From the UHGV virus genome UHGV-0150678: a stretch of DNA of 39,693 nt. One strand, 5' to 3'. This DNA is from a virus. Positions 30,801 to 33,800 of this stretch are shown piece after piece. Made by a program: the position numbers. Numbering within the stretch: position 1 is the first letter of the stretch; every line of letters begins with the position of its first letter.

Positions 30801-33800
30801 GCGTCAAAAATATGAACTGCTCACATAAAGAAGTAAGTACATTGGCAAAAAACATTGACGTCAACGAAATTAAATATAAAAATTTAAATGCTTTTTAATG
30901 ACAAGAAAAGTAACTAGTGGTAAAATAACGTAGGATACTAATATGTCAAGACTCAAGACTCAAGACTCAAGACTCAAGACTCAAGACTCAAGACTCAAGA
31001 CTCGTTTTCCGTTGATGATAATGGATCAGGTAATATTTTTGTATGTGGAGATCTTGTAAATAGCAAAGAGAATAAAGTTCAGTTCAATGGAAACAATAAC
31101 AAACTTATTATAGAAGATGATGTTGAGTGTCGATGGCTTACCGTAATATTTAGGGGTGATAATAATTACGTAAGAATACATAAAAACAGTAAGATTAAAG
31201 GTGATATTGTCGCAACAAAAGGTTCAAAAGTTATTATCGGTAGAAGAACGACAATAGGTGCAGGTTTTGAAGTCGTCACTGATAAGTGCAATGTTACAAT
31301 TGGCCATGACTGCATGATAGCAAGAGATGTTATTTTGCGTGCATCAGATGGGCATCCTATATTTGATATTCATAGCAAAAAAAGGATTAATTGGGCAAAA
31401 GATATCATTATATCTAGTTACGTATGGGTAGGGAGAAATGTCTCTATAATGAAAGGGGTATCTGTTGGAAGCGGATCTGTCATTGGGTATGGGAGTATTG
31501 TAACTAAAGATGTGCCATCTATGTGTGCAGCAGCCGGTAATCCAGCAAAAATAATAAAAAGAAATATAATATGGGCAAGAACGGATAAAGCGGAGCTAAT
31601 TAGTGATGACAAGAGATGCTCCAGCTATCATGCGAAGCTCACGCAATAAATATAAAACATCATGCAGACATATTACCAATATTAATATAAGGTAATAAAA
31701 ATATAATTTACAAAAAAGCCCGTTGGAAGCGACGGGCATTAACCGCGGTAATGGATAAATTATTAATGTTTTTAGATTGTGAACGATATCATATTGTGCG
31801 GAAGTAGTGAAGTAACCATGTAAAATGATTGTTTCATAGCCTATGAGACACACAAGGCTTTGTGCTCTTCGATAGTTGTTAAGGCGGATCACTCTACCTT
31901 CTCATCAAGCCAATCCGCCCACCACTGCATCATTTCTCTGCGCTTATCGAGATACTGAGCATGGTTGTAAATTCCGCGTACAGATCCGCCGTTGGCATGT
32001 GCCAGTTGCACTTCAATAGCATCAGCAGGCCATTCGTGCTCGTTCATAATCGTGCTGAATTCATGCCTGAATCCGTGACCGCTTTCCAGACCTTCATAGC
32101 CGATTTGTTTGATCACAAGCAGTACCGCGTTCTCGCAGATTGGCTTCTTCTTATCGTTGCGCCCGGCAAAAACAAACTCTGATACTGGTTTGGTGATTGA
32201 GCTTAGCGTAGTGAGAAGTTCAACCACCTGGTCCGACATCGGGACAACATGAATCTTGCGTCCCTTCATCACACTGGCGTCGATAGTGATAATCCTGTTT
32301 TCAAAATCGACGTTCTTCCATTGCATGGAACGAAGCTCTTTCGTTCTTAGGGCTGTGTAGCGTAAAACTTTGGTCGCAATGAGCGATACGATACTTCCTG
32401 AAAATGTTGCCAGTGCTTTGTTGAATGCAGGGATCTGGTCTGCAGGAAGAAACGGGAAGTTCTTCTTGCGGTATCCCTTCATGGCGTCAGCAAGGTCAGG
32501 TGCCGGGTTATATTTAGCCCTTCCGGTGACAATAGCGTAACGGAAAACCTCGCCGCATCTTCTGCGTGCTTTGTTGGCTCGCTCCATTGCACCGCGATCT
32601 TCAAATCTGCGGATTACTTCCAGAAGTTGCATCGGCTCAATATCCTGAATTTCAAGGCTGCCGATGATAGGTAAAATGTCGTCATCAAACATTTTGGCAA
32701 GTTCAGTTGCATAGCCTACTGACCAGACTTGCTTCTTGTGCTCGTACCATTCCTTGTAAATCGCACTAAAGGAATTGTTGTTAGACGAAGCCTTTTTCGC
32801 CTTTACCGGATCGATGCCAACCGAGATGTCTTTCCTCGCAGTCCATGCTTTATCCCTTGCCTCCTGCAAAGTCATAAGCGGATATTTTCCGACGGTCAGG
32901 ATTTTCTCCTTACCGTCAATCTTGTAGCGAAGCTGCCATACCTTTTTCCCTGACACAGGGACATAAAGGTACAGGCCATTACCATCGAGAAGGCGGTATG
33001 GTTTTTCTTTCGGCTTTGCTGCTTCAATCTGCTTAACGGTGAGCATGGGTAAAAATCCGGTGGGTAAAATTATTTTATCCACTTTTTACCCGTCATGGAG
33101 TGCGGCTGTCAACGATCTGACGCGAACCATGACGAACTGTAAATCTACGGAAGGCTTGATATTCAGGGGATTTTGCGGACTGGTACGGATGGGAGCGAAC
33201 TGATAAATGGTGTCCCCTGCAGACATCTACTTGAAGCGGCAGGGGATTGATTGGAATGGTGTTTTTTAGATGTGAAAAATATTTTACCCGCTATTTTACC
33301 CATTGGCGCGGCTTAAGAGCTTATTTTTGAATTCACAATGGTCACGATATAACCATCTTGCTCGCCCGTGGATAACTTTGGCTTTAGGCAGGTCCCCGGA
33401 CTTAATCCGGTCATAGATGAAGGTTTTACCAAAGCCAGTATCAGCCATGATGAATTTCAAATCAACCAGTGAATCAGGCTGTAGTTCGTGTTGCATGAGT
33501 GCTATCTCCAAATAGGGAATCGAACCTGCAAATCAGGCAATAAAAAACCGCCATCAGGCGGCTTGGTGTTCTTTCAGTTCTTCAATTCGAATATTGGTTA
33601 CGTCTGCATGTGCTATCTGCGCCCATATCATCCAGTGGTCATAGCAGTCATTGATGTTCTCTGCTTCGATAACTCTGTTGAATGGTTCTCCATTCCATTC
33701 ACCTGTGACTCGGAAGTGCATTTATCATCTCCATAAAACAAAACCCGCCGTAGCGAGTTCAGATAAAAGAAATCCCCGCGAATGCGAGGATTGTTATTCA

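What the first reader, a model, noticed from the sequence alone, without database searches (positions are those of the whole stretch)
33208..33528. Two tRNA 3'-half fragments flank alpA; candidate attP
On the minus strand, 33222-33208 reads CTGCAGGGGACACCA, which looks like the 3' end of a tRNA, about 160 bp upstream of the P4-type int and co-oriented with it, as expected for attP. About 300 bp further upstream, on the other side of alpA, 33528-33508 reads TTGCAGGTTCGATTCCC, a tRNA T-arm with the universal GGTTCGATTCC loop. Together they resemble the contiguous 3' half of tRNA-Arg (argW) as I recall it, but here they are separated by alpA. The upstream piece may be a relic of an earlier attachment site or a module exchange.
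Basis: partly seen in the sequence, partly recalled or inferred. Interest (0 to 1): 0.5.

Follow-up and report, generated by a model that had tools for sequence, protein, structure and literature searches.

The report
Known argW attP plus conserved T-loop box
The integrase-proximal tRNA piece is the already-known attachment core by which this CUS-3/HK620-like phage inserts into the E. coli argW tRNA gene, and the second piece is not an attachment site but a short copy of the argW T-loop, conserved just upstream of the excisionase gene and of unknown function.

Summary
Both strings are real, on the minus strand, and both match E. coli argW exactly. CTGCAGGGGACACCAT lies at 33222-33207.

The window is a CUS-3-like P22-type phage carrying the IntS/TorI (KplE1-HK620-Sf6) recombination module. 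The "alpA" gene is torI.

The int-proximal piece is the published 16-nt core. Lysogen junctions put the crossover there: attL is intact argW followed by the window's int-side arm, and attR ends in ...CTGCAGGGGACACCAT(TTATCA) followed by host DNA. That part is already known.

The upstream piece stays about 300 bp inside the prophage and lies outside the 135-bp attR that suffices for excision in vitro. It is not a decaying relic. TTCGATTYC is present in 64 of 103 distinct RDF (recombination directionality factor, i.e. excisionase) leaders from many enterobacterial genera, down to 39% RDF identity. In 51 of those it sits exactly 28 nt before the ATG, with unrelated sequence on both sides. No RNA structure or sigma-70 promoter explains it.

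My best reading is a protein-binding box that copies the attB arm next to the crossover. IntS is slightly favoured over TorI as the binder; no binding was tested.

The CUS-3 GenBank record uses this repeat as its "att core", which is probably a mis-annotation.

The parts
33207..33222 (-). attP common core CTGCAGGGGACACCAT, equal to the argW 3' end. Identity with attB of B2-type hosts runs on to 33201 (22 nt).
   Evidence: Exact single hit. Published KplE1 core (PMC2951348). Annotated attP core in HK620 and Sf6. Lysogen attR and attL junctions. Prophage-delimited records break at 33222.
33515..33531 (-). 'T-loop box'. 33531-33516 is an exact 16-nt copy of the argW T-stem 5' strand, T-loop and CC. 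The part conserved across genera is CAGGTTCGATTCCC (33528-33515), with TTCGATT starting 28 nt before the torI ATG.
33296..33496 (-). torI/hkaC, the recombination directionality factor (66 aa). SD GGAG at 33509-33506.
   Evidence: 98-100% identity to TorI. PDB 1Z4H at E=6.6e-43. Annotated torI in lysogens.
31889..33046 (-). intS, a P4-type tyrosine integrase (385 aa).
   Evidence: Pfam Arm-DNA-bind_3, Phage_int_M and Phage_integrase. Annotated IntS in relatives.
33223..33301 (-). P arm of attP: two GGGTAAAA arm-type repeats (33301-33294, 33289-33282), a conserved ATCAATCCCCTGC block (33251-33239) and a core-proximal GTAGATGT (TTCGATGT in most relatives). The distance from the torI stop to TGCAGG is exactly 74 nt.
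   Evidence: 22-lineage alignment without indels. HK620 attP repeat annotation. The published 135-bp attR starts at the torI 3' end (PMC3509656).
33047..33206 (-). P' arm of attP: TorI site blocks I1-I2 (about 33204-33175) and I3-I5 (about 33141-33112) with GTTCG/GTCCG/GATCG cores; PintS -35 TTGACA (33112-33107); arm-type repeats GGGTAAAA/GGATAAAA/TTTTACCC (33091-33047).
   Evidence: Read from the sequence. Colinear with K-12 attL, no indels. Site description in PMC2951348, section 8.
33545..33564 (-). Intrinsic terminator at the end of the lambda orf55-like gene (33721-33554), immediately upstream of the box.
   Evidence: Shared with lambda-like phages.
33528..33540 (-). TTGCCTGATTTGC, annotated in HK620 as a cII-binding site of a 'pI' promoter. 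It overlaps the first 4 nt of the argW-identical 16-mer, and homology to lambda-like phages ends here.
   Evidence: The spacer is N5, not N6, and the first TTGC is polymorphic.

Best explanation
The locus is the site-specific recombination module of a CUS-3/HK620/Sf6-type phage. On the minus strand it reads: terminator, T-loop box, torI (RDF), P arm, 16-nt core, P' arm overlapping the int promoter, intS.

Shown. Integration happens by IntS-mediated crossover inside CTGCAGGGGACACCAT (33222-33207). This rebuilds the 3' end of argW at attL and separates torI (attR side) from intS (attL side).

Shown. The upstream argW-like piece is not a crossover site. It is a selected cis-element, (C)AGGTTCGATTCCC, placed 5-6 nt upstream of the torI Shine-Dalgarno sequence. 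It reproduces the argW segment that lies directly to the left of the crossover region, i.e. the position of the attB 'B' arm.

Inferred. The box is a protein-binding operator that couples RDF expression, or attP architecture during integration, to the recombination proteins. IntS, through its core-binding domain, is slightly favoured over TorI as the binder. The box is dispensable for the chemistry of excision.
For: attP and core:
- Exact core.
- In lysogen SCU-124, attL is intact argW followed by the window's P' arm, and attR ends in core+TTATCA followed by host DNA.
- E. coli genome matches end at 33208, 33207 or 33201, and prophage-delimited phage records break at 33222.
- The same core is published for KplE1 (PMC2951348) and for Kapi1, Sf6 and HK620 (PMC8787464).
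- IntS domains and TorI identity are confirmed.

The box is under selection:
- TTCGATTYC is present in 64 of 103 distinct RDF leaders, upstream of 45 distinct RDF proteins.
- TTCGATT starts exactly 28 nt from the ATG in 51 of those 64.
- TTCGATT is invariant in 17 representatives below 88% identity, more conserved than the coding sequence, while both flanks vary.
- It is present in Escherichia, Enterobacter, Citrobacter, Atlantibacter, Cedecea, Serratia, Pantoea, Edwardsiella and Hafnia. It is also present in Salmonella g341c-type phages (about 51% RDF identity, different arm repeats) and Erwinia phiEt88 (39%).
- It is duplicated in tandem in Erwinia phage Midgardsormr38.
- In the E. coli-type leaders collected from all fetched loci (81 sequences, some redundant), per-nt variant frequency is 0.35% in the box against 4.8% outside it.
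- 104 of 120 viral-contig hits to box+SD lie upstream of such RDF genes; most of the remaining 16 look like tRNA genes.

Protein site rather than RNA or promoter:
- No consensus structure and no covariation.
- Folding z-score is -0.02.
- No sigma-70 promoter at the box.

IntS rather than TorI:
- The invariant part runs 3' beyond TorI's GTTCG pentamer.
- It survives loss of the pentamer's G in L137, which reads CTTCGATTCCC.
- It persists in phiEt88, whose P'-arm repeats are GYGTWA-like, not GTTCG.
- The central part of the integrase is nearly invariant across these families while the N-terminal arm-binding region diverges.
Against: - No binding or expression data exist for the box.
- It lies outside the 135-bp attR that supports excision in vitro (PMC3509656, section 3.6).
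- It is absent from apparently functional relatives: Klebsiella phage Chronis, where torI overlaps the upstream gene, Erwinia EhrS_49, and the Cronobacter, Mixta and Rahnella prophages. It is therefore not essential.
- There is no inverted partner half-site.
- The core-proximal C arm of attP is TTCGAT-like in the TorI-type family but not in the g341c-type family (TTAGGTGT, TGTGATGT). IntS recognition of TTCGAT is therefore unproven.
- The box does contain TorI's experimentally defined GTTCG motif (PMC2951348), so TorI autoregulation is a live alternative.
- The strictly fixed distance to the SD would also fit an RNA or translation role.
- Near-identical leaders occur with both RDF families, so part of the apparent conservation could reflect horizontal exchange at a mosaic joint.
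Confidence: 0.55

Rival explanations
1. The upstream piece is a non-functional scar: a relic of an ancestral attP that carried about 31 contiguous nt of argW and was split when a torI-plus-P-arm cassette was inserted or exchanged.
For: Exact 16-nt identity in the same orientation, in a register that abuts the core. In relatives the attP C arm is itself T-loop-like (TTCGATGTnTGCAGG), so torI is flanked by two overlapping T-loop copies, like a duplication or an old integration. A mosaic boundary with lambda-like phages falls at 33528. The piece is dispensable in vitro and absent in some relatives (PMC3509656).
Against: A neutral scar should not stay invariant while the sequence on both sides is replaced, across RDF proteins down to 39% identity, at a fixed 28-nt distance. 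In most lineages the tRNA identity ends in CCC rather than CCT, and two lineages read on as CCTG, so the clean split is specific to E. coli. The phage records holding the contiguous 38-mer carry attL or tRNA-Arg annotation or, where unannotated and inspected (LV-2017), a whole tRNA; several were not inspected.
Confidence: 0.12
2. The box acts at the RNA level in the torI leader. It could be an anti-Shine-Dalgarno element (UUCC pairing with GGAG) or a T-arm mimic, either of which would limit or gate TorI translation.
For: The distance to the SD and ATG is strictly fixed. UUCC/GGAG can pair in most of the 13 aligned leaders. Serratia and Edwardsiella versions can form T-arm-like hairpins. Tight control of TorI is known to decide excision (PMC2951348).
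Against: Only 4 weak pairs, at -0.76 kcal/mol, with no compensatory changes. There is no consensus structure over -53..+90 in 17 representatives. The z-score is -0.02. E. coli has no T-stem. Pairing does not explain the invariance of TTCGA. No Rfam family reaches threshold.
Confidence: 0.15
3. The piece is part of a cII-activated 'pI' promoter, as annotated in HK620 and Sf6, and its resemblance to argW is incidental.
For: HK620 and Sf6 annotate a promoter and a cII-binding site here. The position is homologous to lambda pI. The orf55 gene, its terminator and the first TTGC are shared by descent with lambda-like phages, where TTGCN6TTGC is annotated.
Against: The spacer is N5, not N6. The first TTGC is TTAC in K-12 and in a sizeable minority of the E. 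coli viral-contig leaders. The TTGC halves are absent in other genera, whereas the box downstream of them is conserved. No acceptable -10 element was found. A 13-16-nt identity to the very tRNA the phage targets is not incidental.
Confidence: 0.1
4. The upstream 16-mer is the true att core, as in the CUS-3 GenBank record (attL core 1-16, attR core 40192-40207).
For: It is a perfect 16-nt direct repeat between argW at attL and the torI leader near attR.
Against: A crossover there would leave torI behind and would destroy argW on integration. In fact lysogens have intact argW directly followed by the P' arm and intS, and torI lies inside the prophage next to the CTGCAGGGGACACCAT/host junction. 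Complete phage genome records (HK620, Sf6, Kapi1 and others) carry torI between the two pieces. Excision works in vitro with an attR that lacks this 16-mer (PMC3509656).
Confidence: 0.01

Closest known systems
KplE1 (CPS-53) / HK620 / Sf6 / CUS-3 / Kapi1 IntS-TorI recombination module at argW (Panis, Mejean, Ansaldi and co-workers)
   Same: Same gene order (RDF, attP, int), same 16-nt core, same TorI protein and same IntS. The TorI GTTCG sites and GGGTAAAA arm repeats are at colinear positions, and the integration site in argW is the same (PMC2951348, PMC3509656, PMC8787464).
   Different: Nothing of substance; the window is a 97-100% copy. The only addition is that the T-loop box upstream of torI, which is present in K-12 too, does not appear in the site descriptions I could read. 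The 2007 JBC, 2010 Virology, 2001 and 2004 JMB and 2007 J Bacteriol papers were not available.
pawZ, the argW pseudogene fragment annotated at the KplE1 attR in E. coli K-12
   Same: It is the same 15-nt CTGCAGGGGACACCA duplicate as the int-proximal fragment.
   Different: pawZ names only the core duplicate. The second argW-like piece upstream of torI carries no annotation in K-12.
Lambda xis leader with the cII-dependent pI promoter
   Same: Same genomic slot: orf55-like gene, terminator, TTGC box, RDF gene. The sequence is homologous up to the first TTGC.
   Different: Lambda has TTGCN6TTGC and attP downstream of int. Here the spacer is N5, the sequence continues as an argW T-loop copy, and attP lies between the RDF gene and int.
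RDFs that double as transcriptional regulators through operators near their own genes (P2 Cox, 186 Apl; TorI on PintS)
   Same: A recombination protein binding outside the crossover site to control expression. TorI is shown to repress PintS through GTTCG sites (PMC2951348), and Apl has a dual role (PMC7498355, abstract).
   Different: Those operators are arrays of phased repeats. Here there is a single box (two in one phage) whose conserved part extends beyond the TorI pentamer and equals the attB arm. No binding data exist.

Membership tests
IntS/TorI (KplE1-type) argW recombination module | P4-type tyrosine integrase with an arm-binding N-domain | tested here: met
   Pfam Arm-DNA-bind_3 (2.2e-25), Phage_int_M (1.9e-28) and Phage_integrase (1.6e-39). 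Annotated IntS in near-identical lysogens.
IntS/TorI (KplE1-type) argW recombination module | RDF is TorI/HkaC, encoded immediately upstream of attP | tested here: met
   66 aa, PDB 1Z4H 'Tor inhibition protein' at E=6.6e-43 over the full length; 98-100% identical clusters named TorI.
IntS/TorI (KplE1-type) argW recombination module | 16-nt common core CTGCAGGGGACACCAT between RDF and int | tested here: met
   Exact at 33222-33207. Core sequence as published (PMC2951348).
IntS/TorI (KplE1-type) argW recombination module | Prophage junctions at the 3' end of argW, with the tRNA restored | tested here: met
   Strain SCU-124, 100% identical over the attR-side 600 nt of the query: attL is intact argW plus the P' arm; attR is the core plus host DNA.
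IntS/TorI (KplE1-type) argW recombination module | Five TorI sites (GTTCG/GTCCG/GATCG) in the P' arm and arm-type repeats overlapping PintS | tested here: met
   The sequence motifs are at the published spacing (8+12+8 and 8+2+8+2+8), colinear with K-12 (PMC2951348, section 8). Binding itself is not testable here.
tRNA gene or tRNA-like RNA | Cloverleaf detectable by ARAGORN or Rfam | tested here: not met
   No tRNA or tmRNA in the window. No tRNA family hit in 33000-33800 even at E<=10.
Lambda-type cII-dependent promoter (pI) | TTGC-N6-TTGC straddling -35, plus a usable -10 | tested here: not met
   The spacer is 5 nt. The first half-site is polymorphic and is not conserved outside Escherichia. 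No promoter call at the site. Activity is not testable here.
AlpA family (Pfam Phage_AlpA) | Pfam match above the gathering threshold | tested here: not met
   Only HTH_17 at 16.9 bits against a cut-off of 27. Sources do name some homologues 'AlpA family transcriptional regulator', so the label holds at superfamily level only.
Integrase core-type binding site (proposed for the box) | Specific binding by the integrase core-binding or catalytic domain | not testable with these tools
   The only evidence is sequence identity to the attB arm next to the crossover, and co-constancy with the attB target.

The most novel reading that the evidence does not exclude
The T-loop box is a deliberate mimic of the attB arm placed in the leader of the excisionase gene. 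The integrase, docked on the nearby arm-type repeats, would bind it through its core-binding domain and so control TorI synthesis or shape the integrative intasome. This would be an unrecognised feedback link between recombinase occupancy and directionality control in a widespread family of argW-integrating phages.
Probability: 0.2. Interest if true: 0.6.

Novelty: already known. Interest (0 to 1): 0.33.

Why it matters
The attP call is routine; it re-finds a well-studied module. Two by-products have some value. First, the CUS-3 reference record appears to be delimited by the wrong direct repeat, so it lacks its own excisionase gene and true right end. That matters to anyone using the record for prophage boundaries. 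Second, KplE1-type excision is reported to depend on RDF expression (PMC2951348), yet I found nothing on what governs torI itself in the papers I could read. A strongly conserved, tRNA-derived box 28 nt before its start codon is a concrete, cheap-to-test candidate control element.

Tried and rejected
1. tRNA or RNA gene: ARAGORN and Rfam were negative. The only hit was a sub-threshold antisense STnc130 match (27 bits against a gathering score of 55), which is mostly the terminator.

2. Conserved RNA structure in the torI leader: RNAalifold on 13 and then 17 diverse leaders found nothing beyond 4 weak pairs, and the single-sequence z-score is about 0.

3. Sigma-70 promoter at the box: none found by the scan. 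My own by-eye checks for sigma-54, sigma-E, sigma-28, sigma-32 and IHF consensus matches were unconvincing.

4. An extant 'unsplit' attP: the contiguous 38-mer occurs in phage records only where annotated as attL or tRNA-Arg or, in the one unannotated record I inspected, beside a whole tRNA.

5. Generalisation to another module: CP4-57 alpA has no ssrA T-loop copy in its leader. Every TorI relative I retrieved in which a core could be found carries the argW-type core, so the 'box copies the B arm of its own tRNA' rule could not be tested on a different tRNA.

6. Covariation between the box and host argW: the T-loop is invariant in these hosts, so the test is uninformative.

7. Helical phasing between box and core: the distance is 303 nt in TorI-type modules and 323 nt in the g341c and phiEt88 types, but 300 nt in Midgardsormr38. 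This is suggestive at best.

8. Key papers were not held: Panis 2007 JBC and King 2007 J Bacteriol. A search for Menouni 2013 PNAS found nothing.
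Full report
**What is in the sequence**

Read on the minus strand, the region contains, in order:
- a lambda orf55-like gene (33721-33554) and its intrinsic terminator (33564-33545);
- the string TTATTGCCTGATTTGCAGGTTCGATTCCCTATTTGGAGATAGCACTC;
- a 66-codon gene (33496-33296);
- 74 nt of spacer;
- CTGCAGGGGACACCAT (33222-33207);
- 160 nt of repeat-rich DNA;
- a 385-codon integrase gene (33046-31889).

CTGCAGGGGACACCAT gave no matches in shuffled sequence. ARAGORN finds no tRNA gene in the window.

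**Identity of the module**

The 700 bp around the finding is 97-99% identical to HK620, Sf6, IME10, HK633, Kapi1, N7 and others. It also matches thousands of E. coli prophages annotated torI/intS. The later part of the window (20000-33222) is about 97% identical to CUS-3, including the endosialidase tailspike, where it aligns (about half of the query).

The small gene is TorI/HkaC. It matches PDB 1Z4H at E=6.6e-43 and falls in 98-100% identical clusters named TorI. It reaches no Pfam threshold, so "alpA" is right only at superfamily level. The integrase has the Arm-DNA-bind_3, Phage_int_M and Phage_integrase domains.

**The int-proximal fragment is the attP core (already known)**

The 16-mer is the published duplicated core of KplE1 (PMC2951348). 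It is the annotated "attP core" of HK620 and Sf6. It also lies within the 17-bp att duplication reported for Kapi1, whose authors note that attP lies between xis and int (PMC8787464).

I checked junctions directly in strain SCU-124, which is 100% identical to the window over the 600 nt on the attR side:
- attL is an intact argW, GTCCTC...TTGCAGGTTCGATTCCTGCAGGGGACACCA, followed by tttatcagttcgctccc..., which is the window's int-side arm.
- attR reads ...caagtagatgtCTGCAGGGGACACCATTTATCA and then unrelated host DNA.

Genome-wide, matches to the torI side stop at window 33208, 33207 or 33201. Prophage-delimited phage records stop at 33222. The crossover therefore lies within 33222-33201. K-12 annotates the attR copy as the pseudogene pawZ.

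The int-side arm is colinear, without indels, with K-12 attL. The published TorI sites therefore transfer to about 33204-33175 and 33141-33112. These are five 8-mers with GTTCG, GTCCG or GATCG cores, arranged in two blocks of 28 nt (PMC2951348, section 8).

**The upstream fragment is not an att site**

In lysogens the upstream fragment stays about 300 bp inside the prophage, upstream of torI. The attR substrate that supports excision in vitro is 135 bp and begins at the 3' end of torI (primer CTCTTAAGCCGCGCCAATGG; PMC3509656, section 3.6), so it excludes this piece.

The CUS-3 GenBank record nevertheless starts at the argW T-arm ("attL core" 1-16) and ends at this piece ("attR core" 40192-40207). 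As a result the record lacks torI, and a tblastn search with TorI does not find the record. A crossover there would destroy argW and strand the excisionase gene, so I regard this as a mis-assignment prompted by the repeat. It does show that the repeat had been noticed before.

HK620 and Sf6 annotate the same stretch as a cII-activated "pI" promoter and as the start of boundary sequence bsq2. Homology with lambda-like phages (orf55, terminator, first TTGC) ends at 33528, where lambda continues with TTGCGTGTAATTGC...xis.

**The upstream fragment is conserved far beyond what a relic would be**

I collected TorI relatives from GTDB genomes, viral contigs, exact-protein look-ups and phage records. 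The findings are:
- Of 103 distinct RDF leaders, 64 contain TTCGATT(C/T)C. They lie upstream of 45 distinct RDF proteins.
- In 51 of those 64, TTCGATT starts exactly 28 nt before the ATG.
- The usual form is (C)AGGTTCGATTCCC, followed by 5-6 variable nt and then GGAGAT.
- It occurs in Escherichia (including K-12 KplE1), Enterobacter, Citrobacter, Atlantibacter, Cedecea, Serratia, two Pantoea, Edwardsiella and Hafnia.
- It occurs in the Salmonella g341c-type family, whose RDF is about 51% identical and whose arm repeats are GGGCATAA rather than GGGTAAAA, and in Erwinia phage phiEt88 (39% identity).
- Erwinia phage Midgardsormr38 has two copies in tandem.
- In 17 representatives below 88% identity, TTCGATT is the most conserved block of the whole -53..+90 interval, while the sequence on both sides is replaced.
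- In the 81 E. coli-type leaders gathered from all fetched loci (some redundant between scans), per-nt variant frequency is 0.35% inside the box and 4.8% outside it.
104 lie upstream of such RDF genes, and most of the remainder look like tRNA genes.

The box is absent where the leader has been replaced. Examples are Klebsiella phages, where torI overlaps a traR-like gene, and Dryocola, Tatumella, Rahnella, Cronobacter, Mixta and Erwinia EhrS_49. It is therefore useful but not essential.

**What the box is not**

- Not a conserved RNA structure. RNAalifold gives only four weak UUCC/GGAG pairs without compensatory change and nothing on the longer alignment. The E. coli leader folds no better than shuffles.
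- Not a recognisable sigma-70 promoter.
- Probably not the cII site. The spacer is N5. The first TTGC is TTAC in K-12 and in a sizeable minority of the E. coli leaders. Neither half-site is conserved in other genera.
- Not half of a cleanly split tRNA in general. In most lineages the tRNA identity is CAGGTTCGATTCC followed by C, and Serratia and one Pantoea read on as CCTG.

In addition, the core-proximal part of the P arm in most TorI-type relatives reads TTCGATGTnTGCAGGGGAC. This is itself T-loop-like, with a 3-nt mismatch island. The RDF gene is therefore flanked by two overlapping T-loop copies rather than by two complementary halves.

**Most likely role (inferred)**

Sequence is conserved but structure is not, and the element has been duplicated in tandem once. 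Both point to a protein recognition site.

The proteins that travel with the module are IntS and the RDF. The box contains TorI's defined GTTCG motif, and TorI is already known to repress PintS (PMC2951348), so TorI autoregulation is plausible.

Three observations lean towards the integrase instead:
- The invariant part extends 3' of the pentamer (ATTCC).
- It tolerates loss of the pentamer's G, as in L137, which reads CTTCGATTCCC.
- It persists in phiEt88, whose P'-arm repeats look like GYGTWA rather than GTTCG.

What stays constant across all these families is the argW target, together with the central part of the integrase; the arm-binding N-terminus diverges. The box equals the attB segment immediately to the left of the crossover region.

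Against the integrase: there is no inverted partner site; the C arm of the g341c-type attP is not TTCGAT-like; and near-identical leaders occur with both RDF families, so the phiEt88 argument could be undone by recent leader exchange.

My rough weights for the box are:
- functional box, about 0.8;
- protein operator, about 0.5 (IntS about 0.2-0.25, TorI about 0.15-0.2, a host factor the rest);
- RNA or translation element, about 0.15;
- promoter element, about 0.1;
- neutral relic, about 0.1.

**Origin**

The box is almost certainly argW-derived or argW-mimicking: 13-16 nt are identical to the very tRNA the phage targets, in the same orientation, within 310 bp of the core. The data cannot say whether it arose from an old integration or duplication at the T-loop, or by selection for mimicry.

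**Verdict**

The attP and argW interpretation is correct but already established. The "relic" reading of the second piece is probably wrong in the interesting direction: it is a conserved T-loop box in the excisionase leader. To the extent that I could read the literature, its function has not been addressed.

Noticed in passing
CP000711.1 (loci L003 1-38, L004 1393-1408) versus window 33531-33516: The CUS-3 GenBank record is delimited by the T-arm 16-mer repeat (annotated attL and attR 'core'). It therefore omits torI and the real CTGCAGGGGACACCAT junction, and a tblastn search with TorI does not hit the record.
   Followed up: partly
window 33295-33222 and loci L012-L137: The distance from the torI stop codon to the start of TGCAGG is exactly 74 nt in all 22 TorI-type lineages examined, despite heavy substitution. 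It is 91 nt in g341c-type and 88 nt in phiEt88-type modules. This points to a very rigid intasome geometry.
   Followed up: partly
window 30946-31003: A perfect heptanucleotide tandem repeat (TCAAGAC x 8.3) lies upstream of a hexapeptide-acetyltransferase-like ORF (31314-31649, + strand). It looks like the phase-variable neuO contingency locus known from CUS-3 (recalled from memory, not checked here).
   Followed up: no
window 27844-30789: A 981-aa tailspike ORF. The region aligns to the CUS-3 siaK1 endosialidase tailspike at about 97%, so the window is a K1-capsule-specific P22-like phage.
   Followed up: no
window 33446-33573 (+ strand): A sub-threshold Rfam match to the Salmonella sRNA STnc130 (27.3 bits against a gathering score of 55), antisense to the torI start, the box and the terminator. 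Most of the score comes from the terminator hairpin.
   Followed up: partly
L142 (Erwinia phage Midgardsormr38) 1757-1790: The T-loop box is duplicated in tandem (CAGGTTCGATTCCCGT CAGGTTCGATTCCCACC) with a 16-nt period, directly upstream of the RDF Shine-Dalgarno sequence.
   Followed up: no
L012 795-935 (K-12 ypdJ), L140 about 1700-1770, and several viral loci (L165, L166, L186, L199): Many modules carry, just upstream of the box, a short conserved coding remnant (...SLTLDEAC.FLKIS...) that looks like the N-terminus of another excisionase-type HTH protein. This may be a trace of an older RDF gene replaced by torI.
   Followed up: no
window 33303-33163 (- strand): A 46-codon ORF (HK620 hkaB, Sf6 gp17, Kapi1 hyp25 equivalent) runs across the P arm, the core and the first TorI site. 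Its conservation is probably that of the att sites rather than of a protein.
   Followed up: no
L007 1440-1455, L141 about 2090-2110, L018 and L130 attR: In some relatives (Klebsiella phage Chronis, Erwinia phiEt88, Atlantibacter-type prophages) identity to argW stops at TGCAGGGGACA(C), before the CCA. This narrows the crossover to about 11 nt and implies that integration replaces the encoded CCA end.
   Followed up: no
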